Shown here piece by piece: positions 1,187-64,000 of a stretch of DNA of 64,000 bases. A program made the translations under genes and the position numbers. Origin of the DNA: Candidatus Nanoarchaeia archaeon. GTDB lineage: Archaea; Nanobdellota; Nanobdellia; SCGC-AAA011-G17; JAFCDX01. Every line of letters begins with the position of its first letter. Position 1 is the stretch's first letter. The notes below the pieces were generated by a model. It saw only the letters and a program-made list of their open reading frames with translations. It was not told where the DNA came from and did not search any database. The stretch spans positions 187,927 to 251,926 of the forward strand of contig JAQUOT010000001.1 in the NCBI GenBank assembly GCA_028716945.1. Direction: 5' to 3'.

Positions 1187-3832
1187 TTATTTTTTAGAAG
1201 AAAGTTCAAGTCTAGCTTTTTGTTGGTTTCTTATTTTTTTGAAAATATAATCTAATTGGTTTTTCTTCCAACCTTTTTTAACCAAAGCATCTTTAATATC
1301 AATTTCAGATTTTTTATCTGCCAATTGTTTTTTAACATATGCTTCTAATTTTATTTCTTGTTCTTTATTTGAAATTGGAGATCCTCTTTTTATTATATAA
1401 TATTGCCAATATATGAAAACTCCAACAATTACAACTACTACAAATAATATTATTAAAATATACCATGGGAAACTTGATCCACAATCGGCCTTACACCATC
1501 CCTCTTCTAATGGATGACATACTCCATCTCCACATTGATATTCTGGTTCTTCAGTTATTTCTGTTTTAGTTGTAATAGAACATTGTTCTGAAGTAGAACT
1601 TAACTGATTTCCTGTGGTTGTATCATAAGTATAAACTGTTCTTGTTCCTATTCCATCTCCTTCGGGATCTATACAATCTCCTAATCTCTGTTCGTAAGAA
1701 CTTTGACTAGCCATAACAGAAGTTATTATACTACAAATTCCACCAATACAACATTTAACTGAATCTGATGAAGCTACAGAAATAAATTGTCCGGTTGTTC
1801 CAGTACATTGTTGATTTTCTAAACATATTTGTCCATCTAAATTATTACAAGTATAATCAGAATAATCTATTGTAAGTTCTTTACATTGCCCAGTACTAAG
1901 ATCTCTTGATTGACAAGACACACATTCTTCATCTTCTAAAGTACAAGTAGTAGTACAACTTGGATCACATGCATCTCCTTTCCCATCATTATCACAATCT
2001 GCTTGATCCTCATTATAAATGTATATGCAATTATCTTCATCATCACAAATTCCATCTTCATCATAATCATCTTCACATTCTAAGCAAGCAGCATTAGATA
2101 CACAAGCACTATCTGCACAATCTGTTAATCCATTACAATTATTATCAATATTATCAGTACAACTAGTTTCTGATTGAGCACAAGAAGAAGGGGTACATCC
2201 TCCATTATTACATCCATACCCATATGTTTGACAATCAACAACTAAAGTCCATACATTATTTTTACATTCTTGTACATTAGTTCCTAAACATCTTAACTGA
2301 TTTTCTTGACAAACAGCAGCTATACAACTTGTAGCAGATGTACAACAATTTAAACAATCACTTACTCCAGTTATAAGACTAGAACATGTTTGTCCAGATG
2401 TACAACAAACACCATTTTTTTGAGCACAAGTTTGTGAATTAGAAGAAGTAGTACCACATTGATTAGCAGTGCCTGCACCACCACAAGTTTCAGCAGCACT
2501 AACATTACAAGTTAATGTCCCTGTTTTAGATAGATTAGTTCCACAATTTGTTGAAACAATTTTATTTCCACAAAACGAACTTAGGTCTGGAGTAAATATA
2601 ATGGGAGTACATCCACTTCCTCCTACGCCTGCAGCACCACTAACAGTACAACTTTTAATTAATGAAAATTGATTAGTACATGCAGCATCTGTACAATATT
2701 GTTGCCCACCTATACCGGGATTAAAAACTTGACAAATAGACCAAGTTGAACAAGTTGATGTTGTACAAACTCCTTTAGATCCACTTCCTCCTGAAGAAGA
2801 AATATTTGAACTATTAATTTTTTTACAAAGGGTACCAATATCTCCTATATCTCCAACATTACATTTTGAATTTGGTACATATGTTGTACAATTATAAGTA
2901 GTATTTACCCACCTTGTTCCTCCACAATAATAAAAATTTCCAGAGGTACATAAATATTTTCCCCTCATACCAGCAGTACAATTTATTCCATTAAAGTTAA
3001 TTTGAGAAGTATCTCCACAAGTTTTAGCAGTAAATACTACTTTATTTGACAAAGCTCCATTCCATACCCAAACAACATATTTTTGTCCAGGTTCTAAAAC
3101 ATAACTTGGAGATAAGGGTTGTACATTTCCAGCTACATCTCCAGAACCGGTTAATTTTATATTAAACTCATTAAGTGTAAAGGTTTCGGTTGCTTTTGAT
3201 GTATCTTTTACTTCTATAGCATAATAGGTTGATGTAGAAGGATCTGCATTACTTATTTCTCCTTTAAAAACATCAATACTATAAGTTCCACTACTAGGAA
3301 CACTTCCACCACTAAAAGTTATATTTACTTTTGATTTAGTTCCTTCACAAGAAGTTGTAATAGTTGAAGATAAAGTTACGGGGGTTATTATACTTCCTGC
3401 TCCACCCGAAGTTGTGGGTGTAACACATTTTCCACTGCTACATATTTTACCATAATCAGAACAATCTATTTTTCCAATATAAAATGAATTTACAGTATTT
3501 CCACAATACCATTCTCCTAAAAGAGTACCTGTAGTATCTTGTCCAATATCTTTAAGACAATAATCAGAACCTACTACTTGGGTTGTAGAGCTAGAACCAA
3601 TCGCAGAAGTAGTTAATGTAATTTTACTAATTTTACCTTGGATATTATAATTCCAATAACTAGAACTAGAACCATCTGATTTTATACATGAATAAGTAGA
3701 AGCTTCTAAAGTTCTTGTATTATCTGAATTTGTTCCAAATAAATTAGTTAAAAAATTATTTATTGAAAAAGCAAATACAATTGGAGTTACTAAGATTAAT
3801 AATAAAGAAAGTACAATCAAGCTCTTTTTCAT
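1187..3832 (-). CDS. Giant cysteine-rich cell-surface protein with a thrombospondin type-3-like Ca-binding repeat, C-terminal TM anchor and cytoplasmic tail
   Basis: Taken from the 896-aa track ORF. I moved the start to MKKSLIV (3832) because that gives a signal peptide identical to the paralog at 1146. The protein has very many Cys and Thr/Ser-rich stretches. It contains DYDEDGICDDEDNCIYIYNEDQADCDNDGKGDACD, which fits the TSP type-3 consensus. It also has the TM segment WYILIILFVVVVIVGVFIYW followed by a basic tail. Confidence 0.85.
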   Translation of the reverse strand: MKKSLIVLSLLLILVTPIVFAFSINNFLTNLFGTNSDNTRTLEASTYSCIKSDGSSSSYWNYNIQGKISKITLTTSAIGSSSTTQVVGSDYCLKDIGQDTTGTLLGEWYCGNTVNSFYIGKIDCSDYGKICSSGKCVTPTTSGGAGSIITPVTLSSTITTSCEGTKSKVNITFSGGSVPSSGTYSIDVFKGEISNADPSTSTYYAIEVKDTSKATETFTLNEFNIKLTGSGDVAGNVQPLSPSYVLEPGQKYVVWVWNGALSNKVVFTAKTCGDTSQINFNGINCTAGMRGKYLCTSGNFYYCGGTRWVNTTYNCTTYVPNSKCNVGDIGDIGTLCKKINSSNISSSGGSGSKGVCTTSTCSTWSICQVFNPGIGGQQYCTDAACTNQFSLIKSCTVSGAAGVGGSGCTPIIFTPDLSSFCGNKIVSTNCGTNLSKTGTLTCNVSAAETCGGAGTANQCGTTSSNSQTCAQKNGVCCTSGQTCSSLITGVSDCLNCCTSATSCIAAVCQENQLRCLGTNVQECKNNVWTLVVDCQTYGYGCNNGGCTPSSCAQSETSCTDNIDNNCNGLTDCADSACVSNAACLECEDDYDEDGICDDEDNCIYIYNEDQADCDNDGKGDACDPSCTTTCTLEDEECVSCQSRDLSTGQCKELTIDYSDYTCNNLDGQICLENQQCTGTTGQFISVASSDSVKCCIGGICSIITSVMASQSSYEQRLGDCIDPEGDGIGTRTVYTYDTTTGNQLSSTSEQCSITTKTEITEEPEYQCGDGVCHPLEEGWCKADCGSSFPWYILIILFVVVVIVGVFIYWQYYIIKRGSPISNKEQEIKLEAYVKKQLADKKSEIDIKDALVKKGWKKNQLDYIFKKIRNQQKARLELSSKK

Positions 3833-17188: not shown

Positions 17189-17338
17189 GGAGCGGTAGCT
17201 CAGAAAGGTTTTGAAGTTTAAGACCTTGAGCAACCTGGGAGAGCATAGAAATATCTCAAACCACGCTGAAGCCGTGGATGAAAGGTTATACGTCTAGTAT
17301 ACCTTGCCAAATCGGGGGTTCAAATCCCCCTCGCTCCA
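17189..17338 (+). tRNA. tRNA-Phe (anticodon GAA) with three introns (17204..17233, 17245..17259, 17281..17311)
   Basis: The hand fold gives acceptor GGAGCGG/TCGCTCC plus A73. The D-arm is GCTC-AGCCTGGGA-GAGC after removal of a 30-nt insert. The anticodon arm is CCACG-CTGAAGC-CGTGG, the variable loop ATGTC, and the T-arm GGGGG-TTCAAAT-CCCCC. The spliced product is 74 nt. Each intron is bounded by a BHB-like motif with 3-nt bulges. An AT-rich TATA-like tttaaatatat lies about 30 nt upstream. Confidence 0.85.
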
Positions 17339-18026
17339 TTTTCTTTATATTTTTAATATTAGAACTTCTTATTAATTTAATAAAAGAGGAGGCATTATTA
17401 TAACCGCTTATTTGTATTTTATATTTTTCATACCTTTTATTAGTTCTTTTATCTATATAATTTTCATGTCCTACATAATGATCTATCTTTTGAATTTTAA
17501 TCCAATCAGATATTTTGTATATTAAATTTTTATCTTTTAGACCAAGATTAATAACTGGATAAAATTTATATTTTCCGTGATTCTTTTTTAAACACAAAGA
17601 ACCATCTGTATCAAAAATTCCTTTAATGAATGCTTTAGCATAAATTTTATTATCCCATATCCATCGAGGAACCTTATTTCTATAATTTATTTTTTTATAA
17701 CCTATAATATTAAGAAAAGATAATATCCCTTTAGATCTCTTTGTTAAGATTAAAGTATTAATCTTTTTCTTTTGATATAAATTCATCTTTACATTGAATA
17801 AAAACAAAACTTTATCTTTAATATAGTTTGAATAATTCCTCTCATCTTTGAGATTACTAAAAATAGAAAAAATATAATCATTGCTTCCTAAATTATAATA
17901 AACATGGCCATCTCCAGACAAAATACCTAAAAATTCTGACAAGTCTCTAGAAGAGGATTTAGGAAAAATAATTTTATTCTTAATATCTTGGTGACTTAGT
18001 TGAATATCTGATAAATCAAATTTCAT
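17286..18026 (-). CDS. LAGLIDADG family endonuclease (two-motif, free-standing), paralog A
   Basis: Track ORF 17286..18068. I chose the start MKFDLSD at 18026, matching paralog B. The two motifs are LGILSGDGHV and IKGIFDTDGSL. The last 53 nt are antisense to the tRNA-Phe 3' part. Confidence 0.8.
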   Translation of the reverse strand: MKFDLSDIQLSHQDIKNKIIFPKSSSRDLSEFLGILSGDGHVYYNLGSNDYIFSIFSNLKDERNYSNYIKDKVLFLFNVKMNLYQKKKINTLILTKRSKGILSFLNIIGYKKINYRNKVPRWIWDNKIYAKAFIKGIFDTDGSLCLKKNHGKYKFYPVINLGLKDKNLIYKISDWIKIQKIDHYVGHENYIDKRTNKRYEKYKIQISGYNNASSFIKLIRSSNIKNIKKMERGGFEPPIWQGILDV

Positions 18027-18048
18027 GATTAATAAAAAGCGAATTTGA

Positions 18049-18105
18049 TTTATAAATCTGGCGCGCACCCATCTGCAAGTTGCAATTTGTTAGAATATAT
18101 ATTTT
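18049..18105. repeat. Conserved 57-nt block upstream of LAGLIDADG paralog A (TATA-like box plus GC-rich and palindromic core)
   Basis: The sequence tttataaatctggcgcgcacccatctgcaagttgcaatttgttagaatatatatttt is nearly identical to 63404..63459, apart from a 2-nt indel and a local shift. It contains the palindrome tgcaaGttgca. Confidence 0.85.
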
Positions 18106-18163
18106 GTGGAATATAGATAGACGCCTTAGAAACCTTTAAATATAATCTAAGATTAATTAAGAT

Positions 18164-61673: not shown

Positions 61674-62687
61674 ATGGAAAAAAAAGAAATACTTGCACAT
61701 TTTAGTTATGGAAGTGCTATAAGAAATGCTATAGAAAAAATAACTAATGCTAATCGTGGAGTTTTAGTTGTTTTTGTTAAAGATAAGGGTATTAAAAAAA
61801 TAAGTGTTGGTGGTTTTAAAATAAATGAAGAGTTTTCTGAAGAAAGACTTGCTGAATTAGCAAAATTAGATGGAGCAATATTGGTAGATAATAAACTACA
61901 AAAAATAATTAGTGCTAATGTCTTATTAAATCCGAGTATAAAAATTCCTAGTACAGAAACAGGTACAAGACATCAAGCAGCAGAAAGAACTGCAAGACAA
62001 TTAGATACAATGGTTCTTGCTATTTCTGCAAAAACAGGAACTGCAATGGTATATCATGGAAATGGTAAATTAAAATTAAATAATTTAGGTAAAATATTCA
62101 CAAAGACTGGAGAAGCACTAAGAATTATTGAAAAGCATAGAGAATTATTTAAAGTTTTAATAAAAAAGTTTGATACTTTTGAATTATTAGAAATGGTTAC
62201 ATTAGAAGACCTTGCTTCTATATTTCAAAGAGAAAAAATAATGGATTCTGTTGCAGATATAATCTCTGTTTATTTAAGCGAATTAGGTGATGAAGGAGAA
62301 TTAACAGAATTACAATTAAAAGAAATTATAACTTATGTTCATGCAGAATTAGCTGCAATTATGGCAGATTATCATGATTATTTTAATTTTGATAAGATAA
62401 TTGAAGAATTAAAAGACTTAAAACGTGATGAAATTGTAGTTAAAGAAAACATTTTTAAAATATTCTTAGATAATAGAAAAAAAGAAGATACATTAATACC
62501 GAAAGGTTATAGAATATTAAAGAACATCCCTATTTTAACAGAAGAAAATATAAAGTTATTAATGGAAACTTTCCCAAGTTTAAAAGAATTAATTTCTGCT
62601 CAAGAAGAAGAATTAGCTGCTATCAAATCTATAGGAAATAAAAAGGCTAAAGCTATAAGAGAATATCTATTAAAAGCACAGATTTAA
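61674..62687 (+). CDS. disA: DisA-type diadenylate cyclase (DAC domain, helical linker and C-terminal HhH)
   Basis: 337 aa. The DAC motifs are LDGAILVD and ETGTRHQAAERTARQ. The layout is collinear with bacterial DisA, and the C-terminus has IKSIGNKKAKAIREYL (HhH). Confidence 0.8.
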   Translation: MEKKEILAHFSYGSAIRNAIEKITNANRGVLVVFVKDKGIKKISVGGFKINEEFSEERLAELAKLDGAILVDNKLQKIISANVLLNPSIKIPSTETGTRHQAAERTARQLDTMVLAISAKTGTAMVYHGNGKLKLNNLGKIFTKTGEALRIIEKHRELFKVLIKKFDTFELLEMVTLEDLASIFQREKIMDSVADIISVYLSELGDEGELTELQLKEIITYVHAELAAIMADYHDYFNFDKIIEELKDLKRDEIVVKENIFKIFLDNRKKEDTLIPKGYRILKNIPILTEENIKLLMETFPSLKELISAQEEELAAIKSIGNKKAKAIREYLLKAQI

Positions 62688-63382
62688 GAATTATTTCTAA
62701 AATAATAATATTTTTTCCAATGTTTGGGGTTATTAGGAGAGATAATTTTCATCCATTTATTTAACATAAATTCTCCTCTAATTGAAACCTTATATAAATC
62801 TAACCAATTATGATTTTTATGTTTATAAGAATAGATTGTAGAACGAATTCCTAATTTGTTTATTAAATTATTTAATTGTAATCCTAAAGGTTTAGAAGTG
62901 GTGCTTATCTCTAAACGAGGATATAATTTTTTATATTTTGGTTGTAAATATAAAGTTCCATCCGTATCAAAGATTCCTTTAACCACATTAATAGTATACT
63001 CCTTTCTATTTAAGAAACAAGAAGGTATACAAATATCAAATTTTTTACCAAGAGGTAATTTAAGAATTTTATTTTTAAATTCGATTAATGAATCATCCCA
63101 AATTTGAAATCCAAATACTTTTGTAGAAGGCATTTCTTTTGGTTTTATTTTTAAATCATAAACTTTTTTATATAAATCTATAATTTTATTATTATAATGT
63201 TCTTTATCATCAAACATATGCCCCCTTAAAGAATAAAGTCCTTTAGACGTATTTCCGTTTTTGTAAAAATTCATACTTCCATCTCCAATATGCAATCCTG
63301 TTTCTTCTGCTAATTCTATTATTGGTTTTTCTGGAAGTATAAGTTTAGTGCTTTGCTTAATGTCAGATAAATCAAACTTCAT
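62684..63382 (-). CDS. LAGLIDADG family endonuclease (two-motif, free-standing), paralog B
   Basis: 232 aa. It starts MKFDLSDIKQS like paralog A. The motifs are TGLHIGDGSM and VKGIFDTDGTL. Confidence 0.8.
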   Translation of the reverse strand: MKFDLSDIKQSTKLILPEKPIIELAEETGLHIGDGSMNFYKNGNTSKGLYSLRGHMFDDKEHYNNKIIDLYKKVYDLKIKPKEMPSTKVFGFQIWDDSLIEFKNKILKLPLGKKFDICIPSCFLNRKEYTINVVKGIFDTDGTLYLQPKYKKLYPRLEISTTSKPLGLQLNNLINKLGIRSTIYSYKHKNHNWLDLYKVSIRGEFMLNKWMKIISPNNPKHWKKYYYFRNNS

Positions 63383-63403: not shown

Positions 63404-63459
63404 TTTATAAATCTGGCGCGCACATCTTGCAAGTTGCAATTTGTTAGAATATATATTTT
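63404..63459. repeat. Conserved 56-nt block upstream of LAGLIDADG paralog B
   Basis: tttataaatctggcgcgcacatcttgcaagttgcaatttgttagaatatatatttt is the counterpart of 18049..18105. It lies between tRNA-Asn and the endonuclease gene. Confidence 0.85.
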
Positions 63460-63488
63460 AGAGAATATATTTTAAATAAAAAGAAAAG

Positions 63489-63618
63489 CGCCTTAGGGAG
63501 GACTCGAACCTCCGACCACCTGATTAACAGTCTCACCTTTCCATATTGGAAAACAGGTGCTCTACCCTTCAGATCTTCTGAACCTAAAAGGCCAGATGGT
63601 TTGCTGAGCTACTAAGGC
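63489..63618 (-). tRNA. tRNA-Asn (anticodon GTT) with two introns (63567..63601 in the D-loop, 63532..63553 in the anticodon stem at 30/31)
   Basis: Read on the minus strand, the acceptor is GCCTTAG/CTAAGGC plus G73. After splicing the D-arm is GCTC-AGCAGGTA-GAGC and the anticodon arm CCTGA-CTGTTAA-TCAGG. The variable loop is TGGTC and the T-arm GGAGG-TTCGAGT-CCTCC, giving 73 nt. Both introns are bounded by BHB motifs (TCAG|CAA...CTGA|AGG and CACC|TGT|TTTCCA-ATA-TGGAAA|GGTG|AGA). Confidence 0.85.
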
Positions 63619-63657
63619 ATGATTTAAAAGACTTAGAATTAATTTAAAAAGGTTTCC

Positions 63658-64000
63658 TTAATCAATAAAGTCTTTATTCTTTATCTTTTCAGGCAGATAT
63701 TTATCAGAAATAAAGCTTATAATACCACTTCTTAATTTATAACTATCCGCCCATTTAGCATAAGCATTCCATCCATTAAAACTTTCTAATAGATTATCAT
63801 AAATAATTTCATTGTTTTTGTATTGAGATATTCTAAATAATATTTTTCTTATATTTCTTTTTCTTAATAATTTATGATAATAGAAATTTCTAAAACCTAC
63901 AAAGTCTATGCCTTTTGATAAAGAGATTATTTTTGATTTTTCTGAATGCAACTCTAGTTTTAGCTCTTTATTTAGGAAATTATTTATTTGTTCCTTCCAA
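63658..64000 (-). CDS. Reverse transcriptase, C-terminal part (N-terminus beyond the right window edge); compact DGR/retron-like rather than group II maturase-like
   Basis: The track ORF 63658..63951 begins at a TTG. The same frame stays open to the window edge (WKEQINNFLNKELKLELHSEKSKIISLSKGIDFVGF...). It shows the L.L..EK(T/S).I.....G..F(L/V)GF RT motif 6-7 pattern. Only about 75 aa follow the FVGF motif. Confidence 0.65.
   Translation of the reverse strand, partial: WKEQINNFLNKELKLELHSEKSKIISLSKGIDFVGFRNFYYHKLLRKRNIRKILFRISQYKNNEIIYDNLLESFNGWNAYAKWADSYKLRSGIISFISDKYLPEKIKNKDFID

What the first reader, a model, noticed from the sequence alone, without database searches (positions are those of the whole stretch)
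18024..18129. Two LAGLIDADG paralogs next to multi-intron tRNAs share a conserved upstream block better preserved than their coding sequence
Paralog A (17286..18026) and paralog B (62684..63382) both begin MKFDLSDI and have diverged considerably as proteins. Their upstream regions nevertheless keep a near-identical block (18049..18105 versus 63404..63459). The block is TTTATAAAT (a TATA-like box about 22 nt from the ATG, implying a leaderless mRNA), then CTGGCGCGCAC, then the 11-bp palindrome TGCAAGTTGCA, then ATTTGTTAGAATATATATTTT. In copy B the block is followed by the 3' end of tRNA-Asn (GCGCCTTAG at 63488..63496). Copy A has ACGCCTTAG at 18121..18129 with no tRNA there, as if a fragment of the tRNA-Asn end travelled with the cassette. 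Possible roles for the block are an endonuclease operator or homing-site half, the terminus of a small mobile cassette, or a short plus-strand ncRNA ending in the T-run.
Basis: seen in the sequence. Interest (0 to 1): 0.65.

Follow-up and report, generated by a model that had tools for sequence, protein, structure and literature searches.

The report
Shared promoter module of endonuclease genes
The conserved block is most likely a specialised promoter and regulator-binding region that several very different homing-endonuclease genes of this tiny archaeon share, and the same module drives the radA recombinase operon in related archaea, so DNA cutting and DNA repair may be switched on together.

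Summary
Two LAGLIDADG genes on the minus strand (28% identical proteins) are each preceded by a 66-67 nt block, at 18049-18115 and 63404-63469. The block holds two invariant runs of 32 and 20 nt. It occurs only twice in the 64 kb window.

A sister species carries two more copies, in front of two further LAGLIDADG genes (28-34% identical to the others). Across the four copies, 0 of 52 core columns vary, against 29 of 44 neighbouring columns (p = 7e-14).

In gene orientation the block reads: AT-rich box, 5-3-5 dyad (TTGCA-ACT-TGCAA), GC box (GTGCGCGCC), AGA, TTTATAAA. The start codon follows 21-23 nt later, which is the normal leaderless promoter geometry of this genome.

A profile of the block also matches, over its full length, the promoter of a small-protein/radA operon in related Nanoarchaeia (E from 1e-7 to 6e-3). 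Spacing is the same and a different dyad (TGTCC-NNN-GGACA) sits at the same offset.

There is no RNA-structure signal. I read the block as a specialised promoter/operator module, spread among endonuclease paralogs by duplication or gene conversion; copy A still carries a tRNA-Asn 3' relic. It is probably not a homing site, a cassette end or an ncRNA. Co-regulation with radA is plausible but untested. The radA promoter of this lineage was not seen.

The parts
18049..18115 (-). Block copy A (67 nt). Read on the minus strand: TATATTC-CAC-AAAATATATATT-CTAACAAA-TTGCAACTTGCA-GATGG-GTGCGCGCC-AGA-TTTATAAA.
   Evidence: (nhmmer E 5e-21)
63404..63469 (-). Block copy B (66 nt), same architecture. It is 100% identical over 74 nt to the copy at a non-syntenic locus of the sister species (L011).
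18049..18056 (-). Proximal TATA box TTTATAAA of gene A, 22 nt before the ATG. Inferred core promoter of a leaderless mRNA.
63404..63411 (-). Proximal TATA box TTTATAAA of gene B, 21 nt before the ATG.
18057..18068 (-). GC box plus BRE-position AGA (GTGCGCGCCAGA on the minus strand), copy A. GCGCGC is otherwise absent from the window.
63412..63423 (-). GC box plus AGA, copy B.
18073..18085 (-). Dyad TTGCA-ACT-TGCAg, copy A (right arm 4 of 5), at -28..-16 from the TATA box. Putative regulator binding site.
63427..63439 (-). Dyad TTGCA-ACT-TGCAA, copy B. It has the same offset as TGTCC-NNN-GGACA in the radA-operon promoters.
18094..18115 (-). Distal AT-rich box TATATTCcacAAAATATATATT, copy A. This is the most deeply conserved piece (also in L001, L014, L019-L022).
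63448..63469 (-). Distal AT-rich box TATATTCTCTAAAATATATATT, copy B.
18121..18129 (-). Relic of the tRNA-Asn 3' acceptor end (CTAAGGCGT), with no tRNA attached. It marks the origin of copy A's upstream region.
17286..18026 (-). LAGLIDADG gene A (246 aa), from a rare family of 15 homologs. Both catalytic Asp are kept. The last ~17 codons are antisense to the 3' end of a tRNA gene.
62684..63382 (-). LAGLIDADG gene B (232 aa), from a widespread Nanoarchaeia family (>500 homologs at 50-62% identity). The family is always found just downstream of tRNA-Asn.
63488..63625 (-). tRNA-Asn(GUU) with two insertions (35 nt in the D-loop, 22 nt in the anticodon stem), directly upstream of block B.
17189..17338 (+). 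Intron-bearing tRNA, convergent with gene A and overlapping its 3' end.

Best explanation
The block is a DNA-level promoter and regulatory module for the LAGLIDADG endonuclease genes.

Components:
- The proximal TTTATAAA, with AGA at the BRE position, is the core promoter. It would bind TBP/TFB and start a leaderless mRNA at or next to the ATG.
- The GC box, the 5-3-5 dyad just upstream of it, and the distal AT-rich box are binding sites for one or more host transcription factors. They lie upstream of BRE/TATA, which is the usual position of archaeal activators.

Origin and spread: the module belongs to the same promoter class as the small-protein/radA recombinase operon of related Nanoarchaeia. 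It has been propagated among endonuclease paralogs of this lineage by duplication or gene conversion. Copy A's upstream region came from a tRNA-Asn-linked copy and kept 9 nt of the tRNA end.

Why it is so well kept: selection on the protein-binding boxes holds 52 positions invariant while the coding regions, the spacer and the flanks diverge or are swapped.

Likely consequence: the endonucleases are expressed under the same control as recombination functions.

What is shown and what is inferred: sequence architecture, copy number, gene association, cross-lineage homology and the relic are shown. Transcription start, factor binding and co-regulation are inferred.
For: 1. All six full-length block matches in 214 kb (four distinct copies, because the sister contig was fetched twice) lie upstream of LAGLIDADG genes: window A and B, and L010 and L011 of the sister species JBAZJB01. 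The four proteins are only 28-34% identical to one another.
2. TTTATAAA lies 21-23 nt before the ATG in all four. In the window, TATA-like octamers peak sharply at -29/-30 from start codons: 13 of 27 octamer hits within 80 nt upstream of 50 long ORFs.
3. Conservation is box-like: 0 of 52 core columns vary against 29 of 44 other columns between the block start and the ATG, Fisher p = 7e-14. The spacer between the cores varies in both sequence and length.
4. The 20-mer GTGCGCGCCAGATTTATAAA was also found in an unrelated metagenome contig (L014/L015), upstream of a 94-aa gene plus radA. That contig also has TATATTCTATAAAATATAT at the identical 46-nt spacing.
5. Orthologous operons were retrieved only through the 94-aa protein, so independently of the DNA motif. 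They show the same module: nhmmer full-length E = 3e-5 (L020), 6.5e-4 (L019) and 5.6e-3 (L021). L016, L017 and L022 keep only parts of it (GC box plus TTTATAAA; L017 and L022 also the AT-rich box), seen in the alignment only.
6. A dyad sits at the same offset, -28..-16 from the TATA box: TTGCA-ACT-TGCAA here, TGTCC-ACC/TGC-GGACA in the radA promoters.
7. A-type LAGLIDADG orthologs found by protein homology carry CTGGACAA(C/G) plus a GC box plus CAGA plus TATA. L008 shares the 13-mer GGACAACCGCGCG with the radA promoter of L019.
8. Similarity to the radA promoters ends at the TATA box, as expected for an untranscribed control region.
9. The tRNA-Asn relic is at 18121-18129.
Against: - No transcription start, expression or binding data exist for these organisms.
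- The radA promoter of the window's own lineage was not seen. In the sister genome's 766-kb contig each exact 20-mer core occurs only at the two LAGLIDADG loci, so any radA promoter on that contig is at best a diverged version.
- Orthologs of gene B in other lineages (L003, L005, L027) lack the module and use a different palindrome, so the link between gene and module is lineage-specific.
- radA promoters of close relatives (L014 vs L019) differ at about 14 of 58 positions. Promoter function alone therefore does not explain 100% identity among four copies; recent copying or gene conversion must contribute.
- No candidate regulator was identified.
Confidence: 0.6

Rival explanations
1. The block is mainly a recombination handle, the conserved 5' flank of an exchangeable endonuclease cassette. 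Identical blocks at several loci would provide the homology that lets endonuclease coding regions be swapped or copied between loci and genomes after a double-strand break.
For: At the syntenic tRNA-Asn/DisA locus the window and the sister species are 89-93% identical in both flanks. Yet they carry endonuclease genes that do not align at the DNA level (30% protein identity). The breakpoints fall in the first ~18 nt of the gene and at its 3' end. L011's block is 74/74 identical to window B although the two loci are not orthologous. The tRNA relic shows that the upstream region moved between loci.
Against: A homologous module precedes radA operons with no endonuclease gene. Conservation is in discrete boxes that match promoter geometry, with a variable spacer; a pure homology arm would not need that. 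No second conserved arm exists 3' of the genes. This reading is compatible with the promoter explanation as a side effect.
Confidence: 0.15
2. The block is a neutral leftover of a recent duplication or gene conversion and has no function of its own.
For: A non-functional tRNA 3' relic is preserved next to copy A, so at least part of the region was copied recently.
Against: Within the same tract the non-core positions have diverged (29 of 44 variable) while the 52 core positions have not. The first 8 codons already carry 3 synonymous changes. The architecture is conserved in distant lineages in front of a different operon.
Confidence: 0.07
3. The block is the recognition or operator site of the LAGLIDADG enzymes themselves, serving as a homing-site half or for autoregulation.
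For: The block contains a dyad of suitable size next to each endonuclease gene. Autorepression at the enzyme's own promoter is known for phage I-TevI (own knowledge).
Against: Four enzymes that are 28-34% identical are unlikely to read one invariant site. Two-domain monomeric LAGLIDADG enzymes use asymmetric sites. The module also occurs at radA operons without such genes.
Confidence: 0.05
4. The dyad plus G/C string is an ORB-like site bound by an Orc1/Cdc6-family protein, acting either in replication or as a damage-response regulator like Orc1-2 in Sulfolobales.
For: The layout (5-nt inverted arms, a short spacer, then a GC string) resembles origin recognition boxes (own knowledge). In L020 an Orc1/Cdc6 gene lies immediately upstream of the block. 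Orc1-2 controls damage-response promoters in Sulfolobales (PMC6061795).
Against: This is a resemblance from memory only. The Orc1-2 motif (ANTTTC) is different. In L019 and L021 the neighbour is not Orc1/Cdc6. No clustered repeats or unwinding element were seen, and GC skew follows gene orientation.
Confidence: 0.08
5. The block encodes a small non-coding RNA or a structured 5' leader.
For: A T-run lies on the plus strand, and a distal TATA-like box could start a transcript that includes the GC box.
Against: Folding energies are no better than shuffles on either strand (z from -0.62 to +0.67). Nothing in Rfam matches beyond noise. There is no consistent upstream promoter for the plus strand. 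Similarity to the radA promoters stops at the TATA box, and the transcribed parts differ.
Confidence: 0.03

Closest known systems
Archaeal BRE/TATA promoters with upstream activator sites (for example Ptr2-, TFB-RF1- and Lrp-type control; own knowledge) driving leaderless mRNAs
   Same: An AT-rich octamer starts 29-30 nt before the start codon, as for other genes of this genome. AGA sits at the BRE-proximal position. A dyad lies immediately upstream, where archaeal activators usually bind.
   Different: The GC box GTGCGCGCC and the second AT-rich box 44 nt upstream are absent from ordinary promoters of the window. No regulator is known. Nothing has been tested experimentally in these uncultured DPANN archaea.
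Putative mobile promoters / promoter propagation in prokaryotes (PMC3488235, PMC3575422)
   Same: Near-identical upstream sequence sits in front of genes whose coding parts are very different. There is evidence that the promoter piece moved between loci (the tRNA relic).
   Different: Here the downstream genes are distant paralogs of one superfamily, not unrelated genes. The module is also conserved vertically in front of radA operons in other lineages.
Damage-response or recombination regulons with a shared operator: the Orc1-2 regulon of Sulfolobales (PMC6061795) and bacterial SOS boxes (own knowledge)
   Same: One cis-motif is shared by a recombinase operon and other DNA-transaction genes. 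The idea that mobile elements tie their expression to the host repair response also fits.
   Different: The motif sequence is unrelated to ANTTTC or to LexA boxes. The regulator and the inducing signal are unknown. radA and endonuclease promoters have not been shown to share the module within a single genome.
Free-standing homing endonuclease genes of T4-like phages with their own promoters, some inside the tRNA gene cluster (PMC2988022)
   Same: The endonuclease genes are free-standing, lie next to tRNA genes, have dedicated promoters, and are replaced between close relatives at a fixed locus.
   Different: These are cellular archaeal genomes, the enzymes are LAGLIDADG rather than GIY-YIG or HNH, and the conserved element is shared with a host recombinase operon.

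Membership tests
Archaeal core promoter of a leaderless mRNA | An AT-rich TATA octamer centred about 26-27 nt upstream of the transcription start, which here is the start codon. | tested here: met
   TTTATAAA starts at -29..-31 from the ATG in all four genes. This matches the genome-wide mode at -29/-30.
Archaeal core promoter of a leaderless mRNA | A BRE-like purine-rich element directly upstream of the TATA box. | tested here: inconclusive
   AGA precedes the TATA box as in other window promoters (..AAGA|TTTAAATA). The positions further upstream are GC-rich rather than A-rich.
Archaeal core promoter of a leaderless mRNA | An experimentally mapped transcription start. | not testable with these tools
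   No transcript data were available.
Transcription-factor operator shared by a regulon | The same motif at a fixed position in promoters of several genes. | tested here: met
   It is found in four LAGLIDADG promoters in two species and in the radA-operon promoters L014, L019, L020 and L021, with the same spacing. Only 2 copies occur in the 64 kb window.
Transcription-factor operator shared by a regulon | Dyad symmetry of the site. | tested here: met
   TTGCA-ACT-TGCAA and TGTCC-NNN-GGACA sit at the same offset. In A-type promoters only a half-site, GGACAA, is clear.
Transcription-factor operator shared by a regulon | The functionally linked target genes carry the motif within one genome. | not tested
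Exact cores occur only at the 2 LAGLIDADG loci in the sister contig.
Transcription-factor operator shared by a regulon | An identified regulator that binds the site. | not testable with these tools
   No candidate was established. The 94-aa operon protein has an inconclusive fold.
LAGLIDADG homing endonuclease (the downstream genes) | Two LAGLIDADG motifs with their catalytic acidic residues. | tested here: met
   A has GILSGDG and GIFDTDG. B has GLHIGDG and GIFDTDG. The L010 and L011 proteins likewise keep both Asp. Pfam LAGLIDADG_3 gives E 2.6e-9 for B and 5.9e-4 for A, the latter below the gathering score.
LAGLIDADG homing endonuclease (the downstream genes) | Mobility: presence/absence or replacement at a conserved locus. 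| tested here: met
   Different endonuclease genes lie between conserved flanks in the window and the sister species. However, family B is syntenic with tRNA-Asn across many lineages, which looks vertical.
LAGLIDADG homing endonuclease (the downstream genes) | Site-specific DNA cleavage. | not testable with these tools
   This needs biochemistry.
Homing site / terminus of a mobile cassette | The element is found only with the endonuclease gene; empty alleles show a contiguous target. | tested here: not met
   A homologous module lies upstream of radA operons that lack a free-standing endonuclease. No empty site was found in two collection scans.
Structured non-coding RNA | A stable or conserved secondary structure, or a match to a known family. 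| tested here: not met
   z-scores are -0.62 to +0.67. Rfam gives only sub-threshold noise.
Putative mobile promoter (PMC3488235) | Highly similar upstream sequence in front of non-homologous genes. | tested here: inconclusive
   The blocks are near-identical in front of paralogs that are 28-34% identical. The truly non-homologous case (radA operon) is only a diverged relative (E 1e-7).

The most novel reading that the evidence does not exclude
Nanoarchaeia (Woese-/Pacearchaeota-like DPANN archaea) have a so far undescribed recombination regulon. Its operator/promoter module (AT-rich box, 5-3-5 dyad, GC box, TATA) controls the radA recombinase operon. Selfish free-standing LAGLIDADG endonuclease genes beside tRNA genes have captured this module, and it is homogenised among their copies. 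As a result the cell makes double-strand breaks only when the recombinase needed to repair and copy them is also induced. This would be an archaeal counterpart of mobile elements wired into the bacterial SOS response.
Probability: 0.3. Interest if true: 0.7.

Novelty: new variant of a known kind. Interest (0 to 1): 0.45.

Why it matters
Almost nothing is known about gene regulation in DPANN archaea, and no damage or recombination regulon has been described for them. A compact, sharply defined cis-module shared by radA operons and homing-endonuclease genes gives a concrete, testable handle: a motif for regulon scans and a bait for finding the regulator. It also suggests how free-standing endonuclease genes can persist in very small genomes, by borrowing the control region of the host's recombination machinery. 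Finally, it shows promoter pieces being copied between loci in an archaeon, with a tRNA fragment as a footprint.

Tried and rejected
- ncRNA: I folded both strands of both copies and ran an Rfam E-value search. There was no signal.
- Generic promoter: GCGCGC, each core and the distal box were searched in the window and in 27 loci. They occur only at LAGLIDADG and radA-operon promoters. My loose GC-plus-TATA regular expression was too permissive to be useful.
- Viral origin: a scan of viral contigs found nothing.
- Replication origin: the composition profile follows gene orientation and was uninformative.
- Short upstream ORF: ATGTGCGCGCCAGATTTATAA is present in two copies only and is not conserved, so I rejected it by eye.
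- C/D-box sRNA: no C or D boxes were seen by eye.
- PDB sequence search for proteins A and B: only marginal LAGLIDADG hits (I-HjeMI, E 0.005, for A) and none for B.
- RT-like reading of ORF 63658-63951: no Pfam support, so I dropped it.
- The source genome is not in the genome collection. The genome scan hit only a sister species, so the genome-wide copy number for the source itself could not be obtained.

Full report
**The observation**

The window is very AT-rich (about 27% GC). Its protein B is 100% identical to a protein of an NCBI MAG named Candidatus Nanoarchaeia archaeon.

Both LAGLIDADG genes lie on the minus strand: A at 17286-18026 and B at 62684-63382. Both hit Pfam LAGLIDADG_3, and the proteins are 28% identical.

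- A 20-nt run, TTTATAAATCTGGCGCGCAC, and a 32-nt run, TGCAAGTTGCAATTTGTTAGAATATATATTTT, are identical in both copies.
- The two runs are separated by a 4-5 nt variable spacer.
- Each run occurs exactly twice in 64 kb, with none expected from shuffles.
- GCGCGC occurs nowhere else in the window.

The tRNA-Asn remnant next to copy A is real. CTAAGGCG[C/T] with at most one mismatch is found only at 18121 and at the true tRNA-Asn end, 63488.

tRNA-Asn(GUU) at 63488-63625 carries two insertions, of 35 and 22 nt, relative to the intron-less gene of a sister species.

**More copies**

I scanned one genome per species with a 20-mer from the distal core. It hit only one genome, JBAZJB010000001.1, at two places. 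That genome is a sister species, 89-96% identical to the window in syntenic genes.
- Copy L010 sits at the orthologous locus: an intron-less tRNA-Asn, then the block, then a LAGLIDADG gene, then a convergent DisA gene. The endonuclease gene there does not align with B at the DNA level and is 30% identical as protein.
- Copy L011 sits between a divergent LeuRS gene and a fourth LAGLIDADG gene whose 3' end overlaps a tRNA.

The four endonucleases are 28-34% identical pairwise, and all keep both catalytic aspartates. In the four-way alignment, 0 of 52 core columns vary. By contrast, 29 of the 44 other columns between the block's start and the ATG vary (Fisher p = 7e-14).

The spacer between the cores differs in sequence and length. 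The first eight codons of A and B already carry three synonymous differences. The block is therefore constrained in discrete boxes and is not merely young.

**Anatomy in gene orientation**

On the minus strand the block reads: TATATTC-NNN-AAAATATATATT (distal AT-rich box), CTAACAAA, TTGCA-ACT-TGCAA (dyad), a 4-5 nt spacer, GTGCGCGCC (GC box), AGA, TTTATAAA. The ATG follows 21-23 nt later.

Among 50 long ORFs of the window, TATA-like octamers show a sharp peak starting at -29/-30 from the start codon, usually preceded by ..AAGA. The proximal TTTATAAA of the block sits exactly there.

This is the ordinary leaderless promoter geometry of this genome. The GC box, the dyad and the second AT-rich box are what set this promoter apart from the others.

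**The same module elsewhere**

I scanned metagenome contigs with the proximal 20-mer. Besides the sister genome, this found L014/L015. There the 20-mer is preceded, at exactly the same 46-nt distance, by TATATTCTATAAAATATAT. The dyad TGTCC-ACC-GGACA occupies the same offset as the window's dyad.

The downstream genes are not a free-standing endonuclease. They are a 94-aa protein of unknown function followed by radA, which contains an intein.

I then retrieved homologs of the 94-aa protein by protein search, independently of the DNA motif. In every case they head a radA operon.
- Their upstream regions show the GC box next to TTTATAAA.
- In most, the distal AT-rich box is also present.
- In L019-L021 the dyad is TGTCC-TGC-GGACA.

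It matches at full length only the block copies (E about 1e-21) and these radA-operon promoters: L014/15 at 1e-7, L020 at 3e-5, L019 at 6.5e-4 and L021 at 5.6e-3.

Orthologs of gene A from other lineages (L006-L008) carry CTGGACAA(C/G), a GC box, CAGA and a TATA box 22 nt before the ATG. L008 shares the 13-mer GGACAACCGCGCG with the radA promoter of L019.

Similarity between the LAGLIDADG and radA promoters stops at the TATA box. The radA operons then have 40-100 nt leaders with a Shine-Dalgarno sequence, whereas the endonuclease genes are leaderless.

**Interpretation**

The block behaves as an untranscribed control region: a core promoter plus upstream factor-binding sites. It belongs to a promoter class that serves the radA operon in related Nanoarchaeia and the LAGLIDADG genes in this lineage.

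The dyad and GC box lie just upstream of the BRE/TATA position. In archaea that position is typical for activators (established knowledge; not tested here).

Promoter function alone does not explain the perfect identity of four copies. radA promoters of close relatives differ at about 14 of 58 positions. Copying between loci must also have occurred. Three results point that way.
- The tRNA-Asn relic next to copy A.
- The fact that A-type orthologs elsewhere have a diverged version without the relic.
- The 74/74 identity between non-orthologous copies in two species.

All copies in this lineage share the TTGCA dyad while relatives have the GGACA type. This fits co-evolution with a lineage-specific regulator, or homogenisation by gene conversion.

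**Rivals**

- A homing site or operator read by the endonucleases is unlikely. Four enzymes this different would not share one invariant site, and the module exists without free-standing endonuclease genes (L019-L021).
- A cassette terminus or homology arm is compatible with the coding-region swap seen between the two species. It does not explain the box structure or the radA link. I treat it as a possible side effect.
- An ncRNA is not supported.
- A neutral remnant is contradicted by the uneven divergence and by the deep conservation.
- An ORB-like site bound by an Orc1/Cdc6 paralog is an attractive guess. An Orc1/Cdc6 gene abuts the block in L020, and Orc1-2 regulates damage genes in Sulfolobales (PMC6061795). 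It rests on resemblance only.

**Limits**

- No transcript or binding data exist.
- The radA promoter of the window's own lineage was not seen. The exact cores occur only twice in the sister genome's 766-kb contig, so co-regulation of radA and the endonucleases within one cell is inferred, not shown.
- Orthologs of B in L003, L005 and L027 lack the module and instead carry TTTTCG(G)AAAA palindromes.

**Comparison with known systems and verdict**

The closest known concepts are:
- archaeal activator-dependent BRE/TATA promoters;
- promoter propagation, or 'mobile promoters' (PMC3488235);
- shared-operator damage regulons (PMC6061795);
- free-standing endonuclease genes with their own promoters in the tRNA region of T4-like phages (PMC2988022).

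The finding is a real and unusually well-defined cis-regulatory module with an unexpected link to radA. I rate it a new variant of a known kind, of moderate interest.

Noticed in passing
L005 2692-2887 (within the tRNA at about 2668-2932): Rfam calls a group I intron (RF00028, 84.8 bits, E 3e-20) inside the tRNA-Asn-like gene of a Nanoarchaeia MAG. The neighbours are Topo VI A/B, so the genome is archaeal. By eye, the intron interrupts the anticodon at about position 35/36 (..CTGT|intron|TAATC..). That is the site reported for group I introns in tRNA-Asn of Patescibacteria (PMC13011429), a paper that states archaea use BHB introns. This could be an inter-domain transfer between episymbiont lineages.
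   Followed up: partly
window 63488-63625 versus L010 1186-1258: tRNA-Asn has two insertions (35 nt in the D-loop, 22 nt in the anticodon stem) in the window but none in the sister species. The adjacent endonuclease gene has been replaced by a 30%-identical one between conserved flanks. Introns might protect the tRNA gene from the neighbouring endonuclease; this was not tested.
   Followed up: partly
window 17286-17338; also L006 3689-3774, L007 about 3690-3741, L008 3698-3732: The last ~15-17 codons of A-type LAGLIDADG genes are encoded antisense to the 3' end (T-arm and acceptor) of a convergent tRNA gene, giving the peptide ..GGFEPP.. This holds in the window and in three other lineages. 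The exact protein A is on record only from Logan contigs and has no NCBI source.
   Followed up: partly
L016 2889-3000, L017 2881-3000, L022 1388-1500, L014 5504-5563 (minus strand), L019 2942-3000: The 5' leaders of the small-protein/radA operons contain one or two copies of a motif (C/T)(A/T)TGAAA(A/T)A..(T)CCGA(A/T)A..GG. Its closing stems differ but stay complementary (GCCG/CGGC, AGCC/GGCT, CCTC/GAGG). The last copy abuts the Shine-Dalgarno sequence. It may be a conserved leader RNA structure.
   Followed up: no
L017/L018 3269-5240; L014 2779-5250; L016 3257-5737; L024/L025 1776 onward: radA in these archaea is repeatedly associated with LAGLIDADG elements. There are one or two inteins inside radA (products of 823, 826 and 1324 aa), or a free-standing 322-aa LAGLIDADG gene overlapping the radA stop codon in the same operon.
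   Followed up: no
L003 2925-2965, L005 2935-2960, L027 about 1440-1465: Orthologs of gene B in other lineages lack the GC-box module. They carry TTTTCG(G)AAAA / TTTCGAAA palindromes 40-60 nt before the ATG, which suggests a different, also conserved, operator.
   Followed up: no
window 61674-62687 (+): A full-length DisA homolog (DAC domain, DisA linker and HhH; Pfam E 2e-23) is convergent with endonuclease gene B and overlaps its end by 4 nt. It is conserved at the same place in the sister species.
   Followed up: no
L020 1825-2874 versus L019/L021: Synteny between close relatives breaks exactly at the distal edge (TATATTC) of the module. An Orc1/Cdc6-type gene lies upstream in L020, and an RPA-like gene plus a 68-aa gene lie upstream in L019/L021.
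   Followed up: no
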